44,211 bases of DNA from a virus (lineage: Duplodnaviria; Heunggongvirae; Uroviricota; Caudoviricetes), in IMG/VR virus record IMGVR_UViG_2917413769_000009, positions 1-44,211 of that record; one strand, 5' to 3'. Within the stretch, counting starts at the first letter, position 1, and each line of letters begins with the position of its first letter. This document shows, piece after piece, positions 1-24,230 of this stretch. The notes under the pieces are model-generated. The model worked only from the letters and a program-made list of their open reading frames with translations, searched no databases and was not told where the DNA came from. A program made the translations under genes and the position numbers.

Positions 1-1929
1 TTATTCCTCCAATTGTTTAAGACTGCGGCTGCGAATCTCTTGTTGCAGCTTCTCGATCACTTCATTTACGTCCATGCTTCCCAGGTCTTTACCACGGCGG
101 GTGCGAACGGCAACTTTGCCAGATTCCACCTCTTTATCACCACAGACCAGCATATATGGGACGCGACGCAAAGTGTGCTCGCGGATTTTAAAGCCAATCT
201 TCTCATTTCTCAAGTCTGCTTTAACACGAATGCCCGCATTTGATAGTTTTTGCGTCAATTCGTTAACGTATTCAGACTGTGAATCCGTAATGTTCATGAT
301 AACAACCTGAACCGGCGCAAGCCAGGTCGGGAAGAAACCAGCGAACTCTTCGGTCAGGATACCGATGAAACGTTCCATCGACCCAAGAATTGCACGGTGA
401 ATCATTACCGGAACCTTACGCTCGTTGTCTTCGCCTACATAGGAAGCGCTCAGACGAGACGGTAAGGAGAAGTCCAGCTGTACTGTACCGCACTGCCATG
501 CACGATCGAGGCAGTCATACAGGGTAAATTCAATTTTCGGACCGTAGAACGCGCCTTCACCCAGTTGATACTCAAACGGGATGTTGTTTTCTTCCAGCGC
601 AACTGCCAGGTCCGCCTCAGCACGATCCCACATTTCGTCACTGCCAATACGTTTTTCAGGACGAGTGGAAAGCTTGACCACGATCTTCTCGAAGCCAAAA
701 GTGCTGTACATATCATAGACTAAACGGATACATCCGTTAACTTCATCGCGAATTTGTTCTTCAGTACAGAAGATATGCGCGTCATCCTGGGTAAAACCAC
801 GCACGCGCATCAGGCCGTGCAGGGATCCTGACGGCTCGTTACGGTGGCAGCTACCGAACTCGGCCATACGCAGCGGCAGATCGCGATACGACTTCAGCCC
901 CTGGTTAAAGATTTGTACGTGACCCGGACAGTTCATCGGCTTAATGCAGTATTCACGGTTCTCAGAAGAGGTGGTGAACATTGCATCTTTATAGTTTTCC
1001 CAGTGACCGGTTTTTTCCCACAGGACGCGGTCCATCATAAACGGGCCTTTAACTTCCTGATACTGGTACTCTTTCAGTTTAGAGCGAACGAACACTTCCA
1101 GTTCACGGAAGATGGTCCAGCCGTCATTATGCCAGAACACCATACCCGGCGCTTCTTCCTGCATATGGTACAGGTCGAGCTGTTTACCGATTTTACGGTG
1201 GTCGCGTTTAGCGGCTTCTTCCAGACGCTGCAGATACGCGTTGAGGGCTTTTTTATCTGCCCACGCAGTACCATAAATACGTTGCAACATTTTGTTGTTG
1301 CTGTCGCCGCGCCAGTAGGCCCCTGCCGTTTTCATCAGTTTGAAATGGTGGCAGAAACGCATATTCGGTACGTGCGGACCGCGGCACATATCGACATATT
1401 CTTCGTGGAAATAGAGGCCAGGCTGGTCATCATGGGCGATGTTTTCGTCCAGGATGGAGACTTTATAGCTCTCGCCGCGTTTAACGAACGTTTCACGCGC
1501 TTCGTGCCAGCTGACTTTCTTCTTAATGACGTCGTAGTTTTTCTCAGCAAGCTCATGCATCCGCTTCTCGAGTGCTTCGACATCTTCCTGGGTTAACGTG
1601 CGGTCAAGATCAACGTCGTAATAGAAACCGTTGTCAATAACCGGGCCGATTGCCATTTTGGTATGCGGCCAAAGTTGTTTAATTGCGTGCCCTAACAGGT
1701 GCGCACAGGAGTGACGAATGATCTCCAGACCTTCTTCGTCTTTAGCGGTAATGATCGCCAGTTTAGCGTCGTTTTCAATCAAATCGCACGCATCTACCAG
1801 TTCGCCATTAACGCGCCCTGCGATACAGGCTTTCGCCAGACCTGGACCAATGTCCAGCGCAACATCCATGGGGCTTACAGCGTGGTCGTAATGGCGTTGG
1901 CTGCCATCAGGAAGAGTAATAACAGGCAT
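1..1929 (-). CDS. thrS: threonine--tRNA ligase (ThrRS)
   Basis: 642-aa ORF, complete (stop at 1-3, ATG at 1927-1929). Translation [16 protein letters not shown]...[10 protein letters not shown] matches the E. coli ThrRS sequence as I recall it over its full length. Confidence 0.97.
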
Positions 1930-12812: not shown

Positions 12813-15800
12813 TCAGGCACTGCATAATCCTCCGTCCCGACGTGATGACTGCATAATTGACACAACCCTGCTGTCGATCAGATCCACCAGCCCCCTGGCT
12901 GACTGCGTATCTATCTCGCCATTGCTCCCTTTATTCTGAATACTGATGTGATACACGGGAGAATAAACAAATCCCCCGCCACCATTCACATTGCCAATGG
13001 CTCTGACTCCAAGAGAGCCGTCCGCTGCCCGGGTCAGTGGCATGATAGCTTCAGGCCCGGCCTCGCCCATCAGCCCGGCACCTTTCGCAAAAGCAAAATA
13101 CGTCGGGGTATCCACAATGGTGTTACTGTAAGCACTCAAATTTGCCGATGTATAAACACCACCTTTTGCGTTTGCCACTGCACCGGAAAGCCAGTCGCCG
13201 ACTGTACCAAGCCATCCTCCGGCACCGGACATGCTTTTGGAAAGTGACTTCAGCCCGTTAACGATGGCAGCGTTCATCAGAATTTTTGAAACTTCCTGGA
13301 GAATTGAACTCCCCCAGTTTCGCCAGTCCACAACATTTCCGGCCAGTGCATCGGAAATATTTGATACCAGCCCGTCCATAGTGGAAACGACAGCATCTGC
13401 CGCCTGCGAAGCATAATCGGTGGCACTGTCTGCCCAGTTCGTCAGTCCCTCCTGGAGGCCGGCATTCCAGTCACTGCGTAAAGCATCAGCCTTTGCATAA
13501 TAATCCTGCTGATCGCTGAGACGCTCTTCCAGATATTTTTCATTCAGCGATTTTTCCTGTTTCCACAGGGCTTCTTCAATTTCTCCGGCCTGATACTGTC
13601 TCAGTAGCTCGTTATTTTTCTGCTCAAACGCCTGCCGGATACTCCACATTTCCTGGAGTCGTTCACGCATCCGTGAGCCTTCACCATATCCCAGCAACTG
13701 CGCGTCGTCAGATGCCCGGGCACTGGCATTACTGTCCGCCAGACTGCTTTCATACGCGGCAAGCTGCTCACGAATCTTTTTCTGGTCGATGAGTGCCGCA
13801 TTCTGTAAAAGCGTTTTTTTTCTGCGCTTCTGACAGGGTTGATAATTCGCCCTGACTGACCTGATATTTCATCTTAGCCAGTTCAGTATTCTGCCCTGCC
13901 AGTGCTATCTGTTCTTTTTGCTGTTTAATCAGCCGTTTATAAATATCTTCTGTTTTTTCCGCTTCGGTCTTTTTATGCGTTTTGGGTTTATTTGCCTGGT
14001 TATTTCGCCAGGCATCCAGTGAGTTATTGATATAATTCTGTCTGGCTGTCTGATACGCCTCTCCCACAAAGCCGAGATCATCCGCAGCATAGCCCAGTCG
14101 GGCACGCTCACGCGCTTCCCCCTTAAGGCGGGACAGAGCCAGTTCGCGCTTGCTGTTATTCAGTGCGGTCTGCTGTTTATCATCCAGGGTTGCCTGTGGT
14201 AGCCGTAACGGTACATTCACCAGCCCCTGTCGCTGCTGAAGTAATTCATTACCAAGCCCAAGAAGGCGATTAAACTCGGTATGCTGCCCATTCATGATCA
14301 ACAGGGACTGATACGCTTTGTTTTGTTCCGCCGCCTGTTGACGGATCAACGCCACCCGTCGCTCCTCCAGCCCGGCAAGCACATCCTGAATAGATTGCGC
14401 TTTGCCCTGCATTTGAGTGAGACGGGATTGTTCAACTGCCAGTTGATTTGTTGCTTCGGCAAGCCCTTTAAGGATGATTTCAGCACCCGAACCACTCTGC
14501 GAACTTTCATCAAGCCAACGTTGATAATCAGCAATTTGATTTTTCAGTCCGCGAATTTTTCCTTCCTGTTCGCTAATCAGGCGATTTTGTTCCTCCAGTG
14601 CCTGCCGCGTCTTTTCCTCATTATCTGACGCTTCAGGAAGCGACATTGCCGACGTTTTCTGGCGAATTTCGTCGATTGTTGCGGCATACTGACGTGCAGA
14701 TTCTCTGGCCTGCTCCTGATTCTGATACATCGTGTACCAGGCCGCAGCCCCCAGCATGACAAGCCCCGGCACACCACCAACCAGCCCCAGTGCCCCTCTT
14801 AACAGACGACTCCCCACTGACGTGACAGTATTCAGCGTTGTCTGTGCTGCTGTTCTGGCCGCAATATTACGGGTAAGTGACGCCTGAGCAGCTGTCAGCT
14901 TCGCTTCTGCGGCTGCCTGCCTTTCAGTACCACGGGTAGCCGCAACCGCCTGTTGCGCACGATAAACCGCCGCACGCGCCCTGGCTGTTGCTATCTGTGT
15001 CCCCCGAAGTTGCGCTTCCGCAAGAGCCACTTCGTTTCTGGCTGCAGTAATTAATCCGGCAGTTGCAGATCCAGCAGAAGACGCCATATTGCCAAAATAT
15101 CGGGCTACCCCGACGGCAACCAGAGCACCGGCAGCGGTTGCCACAGTGTCAATATTGCCTGCAATACCATTCAGCACACCGGAGAGCGTCTTCGTCACTC
15201 CGCTTGCCTCGTTCGCACCACCAACCCAGGCCATAAAGGCGTTTTCAACTTTGGTTGCAGAGGATGAAACCGTATCAGGCATTGCCGCATATTCATCACG
15301 TAATGCCCCAAGCTGACTAACCAGTGCAGGAACAACCTTATCGGCGGTCAACTTTCCGTTATCCGCCATGGCCTTCAGATCCTTACGGGCAACCCCCATT
15401 CCCGCAGCCAGCGCACGAATAACACGATCGCCGTTCTCATTCACCGAGTTAAACTCTTCACCGCGTAGCACTCCCTGCGCCAGTGCCTGACTGAACTGCG
15501 TGATCACCGAACTGGCTTCTGCTGTACTGGCACCGGATAATTTCAGGCCCGTGGAGATCGCCTCGGTGACTTTCAGTACCTCCTCAGAACTGTAACCATA
15601 CTCCCGCATGGAAGCTGCAGAACGTGCAAAAAGGCTGGCGTTATCAGAAAACGCCGTCCCCGTTCTCTGGCTGATCGCCATTAATTCACGCTGTGATGCC
15701 TGAAAATCATCACTGGACTGTGAGGCCTGCTTCAGACGGGCATTTACTGAATTCCACTCATCGGCGAGAGAAATAAGATGACCGGTAGCAAAAGCCCCGG

Positions 15801-16032
15801 CAAATGCCCCCGCCATATTCAGTGCCGAAGATTTAGCTGTATTTATTTGATCCGTCACTTCTGCCAGTGCACGCCGCATTTCACGGGATGCAGCAGCGGA
15901 CTGCCGGCCTCCGTTCTGCATGGTACGGTAGTAATCCTGCCCCATACGCGAAGCCCGGGAGATCTCTGACTGGAATGACCGGGAATTTGCCGAGATTTTA
16001 ATAATCAGTTCACGTAATGTCGCCACACTCAT
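12813..16032 (-). CDS. H: tail tape measure protein; reading frame interrupted at the A8 run (plus-strand T8 at 13814-13821)
   Basis: A 754-aa ORF (13768-16032) and a 294-aa ORF (12813-13697) are two frames of one gene. The C-terminal part (...AYSNTIVDTPTYFAFAKGAGLMGEAGPEAIMPL...) is lambda H C-terminus-like; removing one A from the run fuses the frames (...SEAQKKTLLQNAALID...). Confidence 0.85.
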
Positions 16033-16042
16033 TCTCCGGACG

Positions 16043-16064
16043 AAAAAAAACCGCCGAAGCGGTT
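16043..16064 (-). terminator. hairpin plus U8 between the G-T chaperone gene and the tape measure gene (possible attenuator)
   Basis: Minus-strand AACCGC-UUCG-GCGGUU followed by U8 (plus-strand A8 at 16043-16050), 11 nt upstream of the H start codon. Confidence 0.45.
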
Positions 16065-16072
16065 ATGTTGAC

Positions 16073-16384
16073 TCACTGAGACACTATTAAAAGCGCGTTT
16101 TCCAGTCCGGCAAATGGATCTGATACGCCTTCTGTCTGCTCCTTCTCCCACTGAAGAAGCGCATCATTCAGTGGCACTTTGACCCCCTGCGCACCGTAAA
16201 CAGCTGAAACAATCTGGGCAGCCCGGATATCAGCCCGTTCGTCCCCCAGCGGGCTGAACCTGTCAAATTCTGCCCACATCATGATTTCTGATGCGGACAT
16301 TTCCCGGCGTAACTCTGACAATGTGCGCCCCATCCTGAGCGCCAGCATCATCAGAAAACGCATCCCCGGAATCGCTACTTTTTT
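16073..16384 (-). CDS. T: tail assembly chaperone T extension, expressed only as a G-T fusion by -1 frameshift
   Basis: The -1 frame is open from just 3' of the slippery site to 16073 (...VAIPGMRFLMMLALRMGRTLSELRREM...), the classic lambda G/G-T arrangement. Confidence 0.75.
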   Translation of the reverse strand, partial: KKVAIPGMRFLMMLALRMGRTLSELRREMSASEIMMWAEFDRFSPLGDERADIRAAQIVSAVYGAQGVKVPLNDALLQWEKEQTEGVSDPFAGLENALLIVSQ

Positions 16385-16761
16385 TTAACCTCGCCGGCAT
16401 CACTGATCAGTTCCAGAGACTGCCGAAGAAGCCGCGCATGCACCGGGCCATACACGGCAATCACCTGTTCACGATCATCCTCTGAAAATACAGGTTGCAG
16501 TCCGGTATCACACAGAACATCGATGAACAGTTCAACATCCGCTTCCAGATTTCGGCGGGCGCGCTCCGCAACGGATAGCGGTGTCTCATCATCTTTTGCT
16601 TTAACGATCTCCTGCCAGCGCAACCAGGCTTCTGCAGAAGGTTCCCGTAATACAACCGTTGCCCCTTCCCATTCAGGCACATCAACAGTTTTATGGCGAA
16701 ACCCCGACATCGTTGCCAGTGCCAGATTACGGATATTTTTAGTCATCACATCTATCCTCAT
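16375..16761 (-). CDS. G: tail assembly chaperone G
   Basis: Position between the major tail and tape measure genes; ends ...AGEVKKK-stop within the slippery A-run. An alternative ATG start at 16746 is possible. Confidence 0.85.
   Translation of the reverse strand: MRIDVMTKNIRNLALATMSGFRHKTVDVPEWEGATVVLREPSAEAWLRWQEIVKAKDDETPLSVAERARRNLEADVELFIDVLCDTGLQPVFSEDDREQVIAVYGPVHARLLRQSLELISDAGEVKKK
16378..16384 (-). promoter_or_regulatory. programmed -1 ribosomal frameshift slippery heptamer A AAA AAG
   Basis: On the minus-strand mRNA positions 16384 to 16378 read A-AAA-AAG, with the G stop 2 codons later and the T frame open. Confidence 0.7.
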
Positions 16762-17465
16762 TAACTGACGGTTACAGTGCAGGAAGTGGAGGTCACTTTG
16801 TTAACCGGGCTTGCTGAATCAGAAATCTCGCAGGTATATGCGCCCGCATCACCGGATACTGCCGATGCCTTACTGAACGTTGCCGCCGTCTGTCCGGAAA
16901 CAGGAGAACTACCTTTCTTCCAGACATAAGAATAAGGCGGCACACCACCGGCAGCCTCAACCATCATTTCGAGTTTCGCTCCGGCAGAAACCTGCAGCGT
17001 GCTGTTTAAATCGACCTTCACTTTCAGTGGCTCTGTCGTCAGCACAGGTTTACCTTTCAGGCGCAGGGAAAACGTTGCAGCCACAACACCGTTGGTTCCT
17101 GCAGACCAGGTATGCTGACGCACCTCTGCCATAAAGGTAAATCCGTTTCCTGACGGAAAAATAACTTTAAAGCCATACGTGGTATCATTGTCATAGGCAC
17201 TGCGCAACGCGTTCTGGGCAGCATTGAGGTAAAAGTTGCCTGACATGGAAATCTCTGACGCGGCACCAAGACCGTTAATATTTTCCTGCTCAACAGAACA
17301 CAGCGTGGTGACATCAATATCCTGCTTTTGTCCTGCGGTAAACTGCACCTCTTTGATTGTACAGCTCAGGCCAAGATAGCTGGCAGAATCCAGGGTTTCT
17401 GCTGTTACCGGTGCAGACGAAATCATAATTTTCGTCAGTTGCGAACGCTCAAAATTAGAGGACAT
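16761..17465 (-). CDS. V: major tail protein with C-terminal Ig-like domain
   Basis: Start at MSSNFERSQ... (ATG 17463-17465, SD AGGAG). C-terminal 90 aa (...LEMMVEAAGGVPPYSYVWKKGSSPVSGQTAATF...AGAYTCEISD...) looks like a Big_2-type Ig domain, as in lambda V. Confidence 0.85.
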   Translation of the reverse strand: MSSNFERSQLTKIMISSAPVTAETLDSASYLGLSCTIKEVQFTAGQKQDIDVTTLCSVEQENINGLGAASEISMSGNFYLNAAQNALRSAYDNDTTYGFKVIFPSGNGFTFMAEVRQHTWSAGTNGVVAATFSLRLKGKPVLTTEPLKVKVDLNSTLQVSAGAKLEMMVEAAGGVPPYSYVWKKGSSPVSGQTAATFSKASAVSGDAGAYTCEISDSASPVNKVTSTSCTVTVS

Positions 17466-17480
17466 ACTCGTCTCCTGAAA

Positions 17481-17503
17481 ATAAAAAACCCGCCAGCGGC
17501 GGG
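17481..17503 (-). terminator. hairpin plus U-tract immediately upstream of the major tail gene
   Basis: Minus-strand CCCGCCGCUGGCGGG followed by UUUUUUAUUUU (plus-strand 17481-17503). Confidence 0.4.
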
Positions 17504-17524
17504 TGGGTAAAATCATTAACAACC

Positions 17525-22497: not shown

Positions 22498-24230
22498 TTA
22501 AAGCGAGCGGATCCCGTAGGACTCAATGTGGTCAGACAGCGTGTCTTCTTTCTCGTACAGCATGGCTCTGCCAACCGCCATAATCAGCGCAACTGCACCA
22601 TCGATTTTGTTTTCCGCCTGCTCTTTGACGGGCTTCACCACATCATCGTTACCCGGAATGGTTTTTCCGACCACGTTGCCGATACACCAGGTCATGATGG
22701 GATTGCCATCATGATGAAAGCGCCCCGATTCAATTGCCGCTTCCAGCTCTTTCATCGGGTCGGACATGTTGGTGTAGTTCTGAATGATGGTGACGGGGTT
22801 CAGGTCTTCATCAGCAAGGTCATGTGACAGCCCGGTCGCCCGAAGGGGTCGATGGGTGACTCGCTGACCGGGCTGATTTTGTTCGCCGCTTTGGCCTCTT
22901 CGAGGATGTAGCGATAATCCACCTCTGCACCATCGGTAACGGTCAGAACGCCCATTTCCACCCATTTCTGAAAGCGTTCGGCTGTCCGGCGATCTTCATT
23001 TTTCTCGACGCTATACACCGTGTCATACGGTACCCAGAAACGCGGGGCCACACTGTAGTAATGCGTTTTACCGTCAATCTCGCGGGTATAAAGTCGCGCC
23101 ATGCTGTTCATATCCAGCTTACGCGCCAGGTCAAAGGCCAGAATGCACGGCTGCCCCTCGAATTGCTCAAGAGTCAGTGATTTATCCTCGCAGCTCTGCC
23201 AGCTCACCAGGTTGAAATACGCCGAACGCGCCGACACCCAGATATTGAGGTGTTTTGTTTTAAAGACGTTTGCCAGACGGGCGTTATTTTTCGCACGCTG
23301 TTGCTGACTTAACAAAAACTCACGGTAAACCGACACCCCGATATTCGGGTTGGCTTTTTCCAGCACCTGTGGGTCGGTCCAGTCGTCACCTTCGTCAACG
23401 GTATAGATGATCCCGAACAGTTCATCGTTGGGTACCGAACCGTTGAGCATCTCGATAACTTCCCGCCGTTTGTCGTAGCACGGCCCCTCAATGTTGTACC
23501 CGGCGGTAGTGATAGCCCACATCAGTGGCTGACGTCGCGCCCCCATCCCGGTAATCATCGTGGTGTAAAGCGCATCTGTGGCGTGCTCGTGATATTCATC
23601 CACCACCGCACAGTGGGGTGATGAACCATCACCGGGGTTACCGATCAGCGGTTCAAACCGCGCCCCATCCTCCGGACGGTTCATGTTTGAGGCGTTAACC
23701 TCAATCCCGAACGCTTCCGTCAGCATTGGTGTGCGTTTACACATCAGTCGCGCCGGGCGAAAAACTTCCCACGCCTGTTTCTCTGTCGTGGCACCGGAAT
23801 ACACTTCCGCGCCAAACTCGTTATCACAGGCAAAACAATACAGGGCAACACCGGCAGAGATTGCCGATTTGCCGTTTTTACGGGGAATTTCGGTATACAC
23901 CTCCCGGAAGCGGCGCAACCGGGTGCCTTTATTGACCCAGCCAAACGCACAGCAGATCACAAATAGCTGCCACGGCTCCAGCGTGATGGGCATCCGTTTA
24001 AATGCCCACTCACCCTTGGTGTGCGGCAACAGCTGAATAAATTTGGCGGCCCGTTCAGCCAGGTCCTTGTCGAAGCGGTAACGAAACGACTTACTTTTTT
24101 CCGCCATCAGGTCATCAAGATGGCGCTGGCAGGCCTGAATCACAAACTGGCAGGCAACAATCTTTCCGCGCACGACATCCCGGGCATACTGATTTGCAGC
24201 ATTTACGTTGGGGTAAGATTTCCGGCTCAT
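22498..24230 (-). CDS. terminase large subunit; reading frame interrupted near the G4 run at 22845-22848
   Basis: N-terminal ATPase part is the 476-aa ORF 22800-24230, the C-terminal nuclease part continues in another frame to 22498 (...[22 protein letters not shown]...). Adding one G/C at the run gives a continuous ...[14 protein letters not shown]... Confidence 0.85.

What the first reader, a model, noticed from the sequence alone, without database searches (positions are those of the whole stretch)
16073..16761. Programmed -1 frameshift site for the G/G-T tail chaperones
The slippery heptamer A-AAA-AAG lies 2 codons before the G stop, and the -1 frame is open for a further 96 codons, as in lambda G-T. 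The run is a true recoding site, not an error; annotation pipelines often miscall it.
Basis: partly seen in the sequence, partly recalled or inferred. Interest (0 to 1): 0.4.

Follow-up and report, generated by a model that had tools for sequence, protein, structure and literature searches.

The report
Prophage tail chaperone G/G-T frameshift site
This is an ordinary, already well-known kind of signal: a slippery A-AAA-AAG in an E. coli prophage that lets a few ribosomes slip back one base at the end of a tail-assembly chaperone gene and make a longer fusion protein, which automatic annotation does not record.

Summary
G (16746..16375) ends ...GTT AAA AAA AAG TAG. The heptamer A_AAA_AAG (16384..16378) is in X_XXY_YYZ phase. 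The -1 frame has a TAA just before it (16387..16385) and G's TAG directly after it, so the only place the two frames can be joined is the heptamer. After the shift, 101 codons (not 96) run to TGA 16075..16073, giving a 224-aa G-T fusion.

G matches Pfam PF06222 (HK97 gp13-type chaperone, not lambda G's PF06894). T matches PF06223, as lambda T does. The pair lies between the major tail and tape measure genes.

- **Survey of 141 loci:** T is in the -1 frame in 136, and an in-phase A_AAG is present in 134 of those.
- **Codon constraint:** the slip codon is AAG in 36/36 lineages, against 30% of other Lys codons.
- **Linker:** it is conserved as protein in the -1 frame, while the window's 'T start' ATG is Met in only 12/36.
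- **Run length:** the run is A8 in at least 119 viral contigs, A7 in 4 and A9 in 0.
- **RNA structure:** no conserved stimulatory structure was found.

HK97-like phages annotate the join. Sharma et al. 2014 list an A_AAA_AAG tail chaperone cluster as a true case. PGAP and the close phage records inspected do not join the two genes.

The parts
16375..16746 (-). Gene G: tail assembly chaperone, 123 aa, stop TAG at 16377..16375. The longest ORF starts at ATG 16761, but ATG 16746 is the likely start.
   Evidence: Pfam PF06222 Phage_TAC_1, E=2.8e-58, matching from residue 6 of the long ORF. PGAP annotates a 372-nt CDS in relatives. GAGGA lies 8 nt upstream of ATG 16746.
16755..16759 (-). Shine-Dalgarno-like GAGGA serving the G start at 16746
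   Evidence: Read from the sequence.
16378..16384 (-). Slippery heptamer A_AAA_AAG in X_XXY_YYZ phase; it forms the last two sense codons of G
   Evidence: An in-phase A_AAG is present in 134/136 related loci in the -1 arrangement, and a full A_AAA_AAG in 34 of 54 distinct junction contexts. The slip codon is AAG in 36/36 lineages against 30% of other Lys codons.
16379..16386 (-). A8 homopolymer run containing the heptamer
   Evidence: In viral contigs of this clade the run is A8 in at least 119, A7 in 4 and A9 in 0.
16385..16387 (-). TAA stop in the -1 frame immediately 5' of the heptamer. Together with G's TAG (16377..16375) it limits the shift-permissive window to the 7-nt heptamer.
16073..16378 (-). 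-1-frame extension (T segment): 101 sense codons, V-A-I-P-G plus the 96-aa 'T' ORF, with stop TGA at 16075..16073
   Evidence: Pfam PF06223 Phage_tail_T, E=3.5e-19. Translations. The linker is conserved as protein in the -1 frame: Pro in 33/36 lineages using all four Pro codons. The window's ATG position is Met in only 12/36.
16761..17465 (-). Upstream neighbour: major tail (tube) protein with a C-terminal Ig-like domain. Its TAA stop overlaps the ATG at 16761.
   Evidence: phrog_158 major tail protein, 2.3e-109. Pfam Ig_2 and Ig_3 matches plus weak tail-tube matches. PGAP annotates a 705-nt CDS in relatives.
16041..16064 (-). Terminator-like hairpin AACCGC-TTCG-GCGGTT followed by T8, between the T stop and the tape measure start
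   Evidence: HK446 annotates rho-independent terminators at comparable positions in its tail operon.
12813..16032 (-). Downstream neighbour: tape measure protein gene. It is split in this window into a 754-aa ORF and a 294-aa ORF by one extra A (A8 at 13814..13821; relatives have A7).
   Evidence: Pfam PF06120 and PF20155 on the 5' ORF and PF09718 on the 3' ORF. Alignment to an intact 3228-nt homolog. A8 variant in 0 viral contigs, A7 in at least 120.

Best explanation
This is a programmed -1 ribosomal frameshift of the lambda G/G-T type, in an HK97-like tail module of an E. coli prophage.

Most ribosomes translating G (123 aa) terminate at TAG 16377..16375 and release the G chaperone. A minority slip back one nucleotide on A_AAA_AAG. 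E. coli's single tRNA-Lys pairs better with AAA than with AAG, so it re-pairs from AAA-AAG to AAA-AAA. Alternatively, the peptidyl-tRNA-Lys slips from AAG to AAA while the adjacent TAG waits in the A site. Either way, translation then continues GTA GCG ATT CCG GGG ATG... in the -1 frame and yields a 224-aa G-T fusion.

By homology with lambda, the G part of both proteins binds the tape measure protein and the T part recruits the major tail protein. On that basis the frameshift frequency would set a fixed G:G-T ratio needed for tail assembly.

Shown here: the anatomy, the family membership, and the conservation of frame, phase and slip codon. Inferred: that the shift occurs, its efficiency, and the protein functions.
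For: 1. Anatomy. The in-phase A_AAA_AAG is bounded by a -1-frame TAA and the zero-frame TAG, so G and T can be joined only there.
2. Family. G matches PF06222 and T matches PF06223. phrog_14766 (224 positions) covers both halves, matching the predicted 224-aa fusion. The pair lies between the major tail and tape measure genes.
3. Comparative survey. Of 141 loci analysed (140 fetched plus the window), spanning E. coli, Serratia, Pectobacterium, Brenneria, Xenorhabdus, Morganella, Proteus, Providencia, Kosakonia, Pantoea and Burkholderia phage, T is in the -1 frame in 136. Of those, 134 have an in-phase A_AAG in the permissive window, and the other two have A_AAA_AAA. The slip site sits a fixed 7 codons before the conserved F-L-M of T, whereas the G stop lies 0-33 nt downstream of it.
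4. Codon constraint. The slip codon is AAG in 36/36 lineages, against 30% of 293 other Lys codons. The neighbouring Ala codon uses all four synonyms.
5. Linker. The linker upstream of any conserved start is under protein-level selection in the -1 frame (Pro in 33/36 with CCC, CCG, CCT and CCA). The window's 'T ATG' position is Met in only 12/36 and is Thr, Val or other residues in most of the remaining lineages. Neither candidate T start has a well-spaced SD.
6. Population. The run is A8 in at least 119 contigs, A7 in 4 and A9 (the in-frame state) in 0.
7. Precedent. HK446 (64% identical in G, notes citing HK97 gp13/gp14) and Bcep176 annotate a joined CDS. Sharma et al. 2014 (PMC4066793, Table S4) list cluster A_AAA_AAG_25 'tail assembly chaperone [true]'. 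O157/Stx prophage relatives have the same AGA AAA AAG TAG junction. A_AAA_AAG is reported as especially shift-prone in E. coli, and G-T frameshifting as widely conserved (PMC5009743).
Against: - There is no direct expression evidence for this locus.
- The heptamer alone is not statistically unusual in the window.
- No conserved stimulatory RNA structure lies downstream. The single-sequence fold has z=-1.87 and its main stem starts about 22 nt from the site, and RNAalifold predicts 0 pairs over 34 lineages.
- The upstream GAGG is only 4 nt from the heptamer and is not conserved, so efficiency is probably low.
- The A8 run could also produce the identical fusion by RNA-polymerase slippage.
- An ATG at 16363 and a conserved Met codon at 16351 could in principle start a free T.
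- This copy of the prophage carries frame-breaking indels in the tape measure and large terminase genes, so the site may not be used productively here.
Confidence: 0.88

Rival explanations
1. Transcriptional slippage rather than ribosomal slippage. RNA polymerase stutters on the A8 run (T8 in the template) and adds one A to a fraction of transcripts. Those mRNAs encode G-T in a single frame, and the protein product (...EVKKKVAIPG...) is identical to the frameshift product.
For: The site is an uninterrupted A8 run. Inserting one A gives exactly the in-frame fusion, as seen at the DNA level in L043, which has A9. Baranov et al. 2005 (PMC1088944) report that selection against A/T runs becomes evident at 9 nt in many bacteria, that A8 appears productive in some IS elements, and that about a tenth of apoB product comes from A8 slippage in human cells.
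Against: Relatives keep the same -1 arrangement and the same register with A-runs of only 3-4: GCA_AAG, GAA_AAG and G_GGA_AAG, in 20 of 54 junction contexts. RNA-polymerase slippage is not expected on runs that short. What is invariant is the in-phase AAG codon (36/36), which is a property read by the ribosome and not by the polymerase. A8 is below the 9-nt threshold that Baranov et al. report for many bacteria. The two mechanisms could both contribute.
Confidence: 0.06
2. There is no recoding. T is made as a separate small protein by independent initiation, or by termination-reinitiation, at ATG 16363 (11 nt after the G stop) or ATG 16351. This is how PGAP annotates it.
For: An ATG-initiated 96-aa ORF exists. 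RefSeq annotates a stand-alone T or DUF4035 CDS. The Met of the F-L-M motif is ATG in 32/36 lineages. In some relatives (L023, L028) the G stop overlaps that ATG as TGATG.
Against: The ATG at 16363 is not conserved (Met in 12/36, otherwise mostly Thr or Val) and has GGGG directly abutting it. ATG 16351 has no SD within normal spacing. PGAP's own start choice is inconsistent, at 279 or 291 nt. The codons upstream of these ATGs are conserved as protein in the -1 frame. The invariant in-phase A_AAG and the fixed distance to T are unexplained by this model. In lambda the frameshift is required to make the T-containing product, and it is the G-T fusion that links the tape measure to the major tail protein (Levin 1993 and Xu 2013/2014, as cited or summarised in PMC5009743).
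Confidence: 0.04
3. Relic reading, which does not exclude the best explanation. The site is an intact, inherited recoding signal, but in this particular copy it is not used productively because the prophage is defective.
For: In this window the tape measure gene is broken by an extra A (A8 at 13814..13821). At least 120 viral contigs carry A7 and none carries A8. The large terminase gene is broken by a missing G (G3 at 22839..22841 against G4 in a relative).
Against: Both differences are single-base homopolymer length changes, which are typical sequencing or assembly errors. The G/T region itself is 99-100% identical to that of many other copies.
Confidence: 0.3

Closest known systems
HK97 gp13/gp14 tail assembly chaperone pair, as annotated in HK97-like phages such as HK446 (NC_019714, joined CDS F846_gp11 with F846_gp12)
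   Same: The Pfam families are the same: G is PF06222 and T is PF06223. G is 64% identical. The position between the major tail and tape measure genes is the same, as is the -1 arrangement. The distance from the slip register to the F-L-M of T is also the same.
   Different: HK446 has CGG_GAA_AAG in the zero frame: an A_AAG tetramer and no canonical X_XXY_YYZ heptamer. Its G continues 5 codons past the site, whereas the window has a full A_AAA_AAG with the stop adjacent. HK446 also has an extra small gene (gp15) before the tape measure gene.
E. coli O157 / Stx prophage tail assembly chaperone. Sharma et al. 2014 (PMC4066793, Table S4) list cluster A_AAA_AAG_25, ECs1801, marked [true].
   Same: The Stx-phage relatives examined here have the same heptamer A_AAA_AAG followed directly by TAG, with T in the -1 frame. 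Stx2a_WGPS8 is 68% identical in G and reads AGA AAA AAG TAG.
   Different: The lineage differs (68% identity), and the linker is V-A-R-P-E-I rather than V-A-I-P-G-M. I did not verify that ECs1801 itself is the PF06222-type gene. That link is an inference from the O157 origin and the matching motif.
Bacteriophage lambda G / G-T (Levin, Hendrix & Casjens 1993; Xu, Hendrix & Duda 2004, 2013, 2014, as cited in PMC5009743)
   Same: A -1 frameshift near the end of the chaperone gene, between the major tail gene V and the tape measure gene H. The T domain matches the same Pfam family, PF06223. No downstream structure was found here.
   Different: Lambda G is PF06894, not PF06222. Pairwise BLASTP of the two T segments is not significant. 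Lambda's heptamer is G_GGA_AAG, 6 codons before the G stop. Lambda G-T is about 279 aa against 224 aa here.
E. coli dnaX gamma/tau frameshift site
   Same: It uses the identical slippery heptamer A_AAA_AAG, read by the single E. coli tRNA-Lys (PMC5009743).
   Different: From my own knowledge, dnaX has an upstream SD-like stimulator about 10 nt away and a downstream stem-loop, and shifts at roughly 50%. Here no conserved stimulator was found. In dnaX the shifted product is the shorter one; here it is the longer one.

Membership tests
G/G-T-type programmed -1 frameshift of long-tailed phage tail assembly chaperones (Levin 1993; Xu et al. 2004) | Two overlapping ORFs located between the major tail protein gene and the tape measure protein gene | tested here: met
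   The minus-strand order is V (17465..16761), G (16746..16375), T (16378..16073), H (16032..).
G/G-T-type programmed -1 frameshift of long-tailed phage tail assembly chaperones (Levin 1993; Xu et al. 2004) | The downstream ORF is in the -1 frame relative to the upstream ORF, and this is conserved in relatives | tested here: met
   -1 in the window. -1 in 136 of 141 loci analysed (the lambda locus L006 gave no match and was not scored). The four scored exceptions all differ by A-run length: A6, A7, A7 and A9.
G/G-T-type programmed -1 frameshift of long-tailed phage tail assembly chaperones (Levin 1993; Xu et al. 2004) | A slippery sequence in the correct phase inside the region where both frames are open | tested here: met
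   A_AAA_AAG at 16384..16378 exactly fills the 7-nt permissive window.
G/G-T-type programmed -1 frameshift of long-tailed phage tail assembly chaperones (Levin 1993; Xu et al. 2004) | The downstream ORF lacks its own conserved start codon and ribosome binding site | tested here: met
   The position of ATG 16363 is Met in only 12/36 lineages. There is no well-spaced SD before 16363 or 16351. The linker upstream is conserved as protein. Caveat: the Met codon at 16351 is conserved (32/36) as part of the F-L-M motif.
G/G-T-type programmed -1 frameshift of long-tailed phage tail assembly chaperones (Levin 1993; Xu et al. 2004) | Two products, G and G-T, made in a fixed ratio (about 30:1 in lambda), with both required for tail assembly and neither present in the virion | not testable with these tools
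   This needs protein analysis and genetics. The lambda values come from PMC5009743.
Pfam PF06222 Phage_TAC_1 (HK97 gp13-type chaperone) | Score above the family's gathering threshold over the full profile | tested here: met
   195.7 bits against a cutoff of 25, covering profile positions 1-124 of 124. HK446 and Bcep176 G match the same family.
Pfam PF06223 Phage_tail_T (lambda T-type domain) | Score above the family's gathering threshold | tested here: met
   69.4 bits against a cutoff of 25.9, covering profile positions 1-69 of 73. Lambda T scores 54.1 bits.
Pfam PF06894 Phage_TAC_2 (lambda G family proper) | The G protein matches the lambda G profile | tested here: not met
   The window's G hits only PF06222 at E<=0.01, and lambda G hits only PF06894. 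The window's G is therefore a functional analogue of lambda G, or a relative too remote for these profiles to detect, and not a member of that family.
dnaX / IS911-type stimulated A_AAA_AAG frameshift cassette | An upstream SD-like element at stimulatory spacing (Sharma et al. searched 6-17 nt upstream), a downstream stem-loop or pseudoknot 5-9 nt from the site, or both | tested here: not met
   GAGG ends 4 nt before the heptamer and is absent in the 90%-identical L003 clade. The downstream fold has z=-1.87 and its main stem starts about 22 nt away. RNAalifold gives 0 consensus pairs over 34 lineages.
Programmed transcriptional slippage sites (Baranov et al. 2005) | A homopolymeric A or T run of 9 or more, conserved as a run in homologs | tested here: not met
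   The run is A8. Homologs in the same register have runs of 3, 4, 6, 7 or 8. A8 is described as sometimes productive (PMC1088944), so a contribution is not excluded.

The most novel reading that the evidence does not exclude
In this PF06222/PF06223 family the essential shift element may be only the in-phase A_AAG read by tRNA-Lys. In most lineages it would be helped by the zero-frame stop codon placed immediately 3' of it, a 'shifty stop' acting through P-site slippage while release factor is awaited, and not by any RNA structure. In this clade, expansion of the run to A8 may add a second layer: RNA-polymerase slippage, or A7/A8/A9 length variation at the DNA level. That layer could tune the G:G-T ratio or switch tail production.
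Probability: 0.08. Interest if true: 0.35.

Novelty: already known. Interest (0 to 1): 0.1.

Why it matters
It matters mainly for annotation. This prophage module is present in 902 of 5,426 complete E. coli genomes. In the RefSeq copies inspected, the T domain is annotated as a free-standing small protein with an arbitrary start, and the 224-aa G-T fusion is not recorded. A joined CDS with ribosomal slippage would be the correct model.

Biologically it adds nothing new to the established G/G-T paradigm. The family-wide survey does give a clean picture of how the slip motif varies (A_AAA_AAG, G_GGA_AAG, A_AAA_AAA, or a bare A_AAG with an adjacent stop) while its phase and its distance to the T domain stay fixed.

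Tried and rejected
1. Downstream stimulatory structure. The 88 nt after the site fold only marginally better than shuffles (z=-1.87, 8/200 shuffles as good). A gap-free alignment of 34 lineages gives no consensus pairs. The local GCGCUC/GGGCGC hairpin coincides with the conserved A-L-R-M-G-R codons and is lost where R becomes K. I rejected it as a conserved stimulator.
2. Upstream SD stimulator. GAGG lies 4 nt upstream and is not conserved. Rejected.
3. Sequencing error at the run. Rejected, because A8 is the state in at least 119 viral contigs and in other species.
4. Single-frame G-T proteins in the protein database (P0001-P0003). P0001 and P0003 show further frame changes within the protein, so they look like low-quality contigs. 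P0002 lacks the V-A-R-P linker. None is evidence for a natural in-frame fusion in this clade, and A9 was found in 0 viral contigs.
5. Direct homology to lambda T by BLASTP. Not significant; only the Pfam profile links the two.
6. Xu et al. 2004 could not be read because it is not held, so I cite it only through PMC5009743 and PMC10885494.
7. Rfam and tRNA scans of the window found nothing.
Full report
**What is there**

The finding's coordinates cover two adjacent ORFs on the minus strand.
- The upstream ORF (longest form 16761..16375) ends ...GGC GAG GTT AAA AAA AAG TAG.
- The heptamer A_AAA_AAG occupies 16384..16378, in X_XXY_YYZ phase relative to that ORF, inside an A8 run at 16386..16379.
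- In the -1 frame a TAA lies at 16387..16385, immediately before the heptamer. The zero-frame TAG (16377..16375) lies immediately after it.
- The stretch in which a -1 shift can join the two frames is therefore exactly the 7-nt heptamer.
- After the shift the -1 frame reads V-A-I-P-G and then the 96-aa ATG-initiated ORF (16363..16076), stopping at TGA 16075..16073.
- The upstream ORF most likely starts at ATG 16746. GAGGA lies 8 nt upstream, PGAP uses this start in relatives, and the Pfam profile begins at residue 6 of the longer ORF. This gives G = 123 aa and a predicted fusion of 224 aa.

**Is it more than chance?**

The bare heptamer is not unusual. The window holds 19 copies on both strands against 10.5 +/- 3.1 expected. 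The case rests on phase, position, gene identity and conservation.

**What the genes are**

- G matches Pfam PF06222 (Phage_TAC_1) at 2.8e-58 over the whole profile.
- The -1 ORF matches PF06223 (Phage_tail_T) at 3.5e-19.
- One PHROG family of 224 positions (phrog_14766) aligns to G over positions 1-121 and to T over positions 129-220, so fused forms are already in phage annotation.
- Upstream lies the major tail protein with an Ig-like C-terminal domain (phrog_158, 2.3e-109). Downstream lies the tape measure gene (PF06120 HK97-type, PF20155).
- The wider window is E. coli chromosome: thrS at 1..1929, followed by a lambdoid prophage. The prophage has an HK97-type capsid, prohead protease, portal and terminase, a lambda-J-like tip protein, a DnaB-like helicase and a cI-like repressor.
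- The module is common, with matches in 902 of 5,426 complete E. coli genomes. It is 96-98% identical to induced E. coli phages such as vB_EcoM-606R7, Evi and phi467.

**Comparative test**

I fetched 53 loci from different bacterial species and 80 viral contigs using an alignment of G homologs. I added several annotated phage records.

- *Frame.* Of 141 loci analysed (140 fetched plus the window), 140 could be scored. The lambda locus L006 gave no tblastn match to either query. T is in the -1 frame relative to G in 136. The four exceptions differ only in A-run length (A6, A7, A7, A9) and look like homopolymer variants or errors.
- *Slip motif.* Of the 136, 134 have an in-phase A_AAG in the permissive window, and the other two have A_AAA_AAA.
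- *Motif classes.* The 54 distinct junction contexts break down as follows: 34 carry the full A_AAA_AAG, in lineages down to 46% G identity within Enterobacterales and in the 29%-identical Burkholderia phage Bcep176; 4 carry lambda's G_GGA_AAG; 5 are the HK97 type CGG/CAG_GAA_AAG; 11 have only xxA_AAG followed directly by a stop.
- *Fixed register.* The slip register lies a constant 7 codons before the conserved F-L-M at the start of the T domain, so 34 lineages align without gaps from the slip site. The G stop, by contrast, lies 0, 12, 15, 24 or 33 nt downstream. This locates the shift at the A_AAG and not elsewhere.
- *Slip codon.* The A-site codon is AAG in 36/36 lineages, whereas AAG makes up 30% of the other 293 Lys codons in the same genes. 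The Ala codon three positions upstream uses all four synonyms. The lineages are related, so this is not a formal probability, but the contrast is clear.
- *Linker.* The linker between the slip site and the T domain is conserved as protein in the -1 frame. Pro at the fourth codon is present in 33/36, encoded by CCC, CCG, CCT and CCA.
- *T start.* The position of the window's 'T start' ATG is Met in only 12/36 and is Thr, Val or other residues in most of the remaining lineages.
- *Ribosome binding.* Neither ATG 16363 nor ATG 16351 has a Shine-Dalgarno at normal spacing.
The out-of-frame state is the one that is maintained.

**Stimulators**

- The 88 nt downstream fold only slightly better than shuffled sequence (z=-1.87), and the main stem begins about 22 nt from the site.
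- RNAalifold predicts no consensus pair across 34 lineages.
- The upstream GAGG is 4 nt from the heptamer and is absent in a 90%-identical clade.
- The only recurrent flanking feature is the zero-frame stop immediately 3' of AAG, in 37 of 54 contexts, including all 11 that lack a heptamer. This is compatible with P-site slippage while a stop codon occupies the A site, but I did not test it.

**Mechanism**

The best-supported reading is low-level -1 ribosomal frameshifting on A_AAA_AAG. This motif is reported to be much more shift-prone in E. coli than related heptamers, because the single tRNA-Lys pairs more strongly with AAA than with AAG (PMC5009743; PMC4066793). The products would be G (123 aa) and G-T (224 aa).

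In lambda, G and the G part of G-T bind the tape measure protein, the T part binds the major tail protein, and a ratio of about 30:1 is needed for tail assembly (PMC5009743). Transferring those roles here rests on profile-level homology for T and on analogy for G.

**Rivals**

1. *RNA-polymerase slippage on A8.* It would give the identical protein, and L043 shows that one extra A puts T in frame. A8 is below the 9-nt length at which Baranov et al. see selection in many bacteria, although A8 can be productive (PMC1088944). Relatives with runs of 3-4 A keep the same arrangement, and the invariant feature is a codon-phase property. This is therefore at most a contributor (0.06).
2. *Separate initiation of T.* The non-conserved ATG, the lack of an SD, PGAP's inconsistent starts and the protein-level conservation upstream all argue against it (0.04).
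3. *Relic in a defective copy.* This does not exclude the main reading. The window's tape measure gene carries an extra A (A8 at 13814..13821; A7 in at least 120 contigs and A8 in none). The large terminase lacks a G (G3 at 22839..22841 against G4). These may be real inactivating mutations or homopolymer sequencing errors.

**Comparison with what is known**

- The closest described relatives are the HK97 gp13/gp14-type pairs. HK446 annotates a 2-piece joined CDS, with notes pointing to HK97 Gp14 and the HK97 tail assembly chaperone.
- Bcep176 annotates 69/69' as the 'lambda G equivalent' and 'lambda T equivalent'.
- Sharma et al. 2014 list an E. coli prophage cluster 'A_AAA_AAG_25, ECs1801, tail assembly chaperone; [true]'. 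O157/Stx prophage relatives, 68% identical, have AGA AAA AAG TAG in the same arrangement. I did not verify that ECs1801 is this family.
- Relative to lambda itself, the mechanism, gene position and T family are shared. The G family differs (PF06894 for lambda), the heptamer differs (G_GGA_AAG), and pairwise BLASTP of the T segments is not significant.

**Annotation**

- PGAP records G plus a stand-alone 'phage tail assembly protein T' or 'DUF4035 domain-containing protein' of 279 or 291 nt, without a join.
- Phage vB_EcoM-606R7 has three short 'tail assembly chaperone' CDS, and phage Evi has two.
- The PRFect paper documents the same problem at scale. [quoted passage not shown] The authors attribute this to incomplete annotation (PMC10885494).

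**Verdict**

The feature is a textbook G/G-T recoding site in a very common E. coli prophage. It is already known in kind, and known in close relatives. Its value is as an annotation correction.

Noticed in passing
window 13814..13821 (minus strand A8), within the tape measure gene 16032..12813: The tape measure gene is split into a 754-aa ORF (16032..13768) and a 294-aa ORF (13697..12813). The cause is one extra A in a run that is A7 in an intact 3228-nt homolog. The A8 form occurs in 0 viral contigs and the A7 form in at least 120. It is either a recent inactivating mutation or a homopolymer sequencing error.
   Followed up: yes
window 22839..22841 (minus strand), within the large terminase gene 24230..22498: The large terminase is split into overlapping ORFs 24230..22800 and 22965..22498. 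The window has CTTCGGGCG where a 95.5%-identical relative (L256) has CTTCGGGGCG and an uninterrupted frame. This is a second frame-breaking homopolymer difference in the same prophage.
   Followed up: partly
window 16041..16064 and 17478..17504 (minus strand): There are terminator-like GC hairpins followed by T runs inside the late operon. One lies between the T stop and the tape measure start (AACCGCTTCGGCGGTT + T8). The other lies just upstream of the major tail gene start (ACCCGCCGCTGGCGGGT + TTTTTATTTT). HK446 annotates rho-independent terminators at comparable places.
   Followed up: partly
L005 (HK446) 1561..1575; also L008-L010, L019, L129-L140: HK97-type relatives that annotate the G-T join have CGG_GAA_AAG in the zero frame. 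This is an A_AAG tetramer inside GGGAAAAG, not a canonical X_XXY_YYZ heptamer, and G continues 5 more codons. The P-site codon GAA would re-pair with GGA with a mismatch.
   Followed up: partly
L020, L021, L032, L033, L035-L037, L055, L056, L060, L012 (Klebsiella, Raoultella, Pantoea, Kalamiella, Erwinia, Silvania, Phytobacter): Eleven junction contexts have only GCA/GTA/GAA_AAG followed immediately by TAA. In every case a bare A_AAG tetramer is paired with an adjacent stop, which suggests the stop may act as the stimulator in this family.
   Followed up: no
L043 (Candidatus Symbiopectobacterium endolongispinus); L102, L118, L150, L217, L264, L265; L025: These are A-run length variants at the slip site. 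A9 in L043 puts G and T in one frame in a symbiont genome. A7 occurs in 4 viral contigs of the window's clade. A6 in Serratia sp. L9 puts T in the +1 frame. I did not determine whether these are real variants or assembly errors.
   Followed up: partly
L003 2283..2624 (E. coli 19KM1863) and L005 1932..2120 (HK446 gp15): Some relatives carry an extra small gene between T and the tape measure gene (a zinc-ribbon protein in L003; gp15 in HK446). The window has only the terminator-like hairpin at that position.
   Followed up: no
window 1..1929 (minus strand): thrS (threonyl-tRNA synthetase; Pfam tRNA-synt_2b, HGTP_anticodon, tRNA_SAD and TGS domains) lies at the left end of the window, next to the tail-fibre end of the prophage. 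No tRNA or tmRNA gene and no Rfam family was found anywhere in the window.
   Followed up: partly
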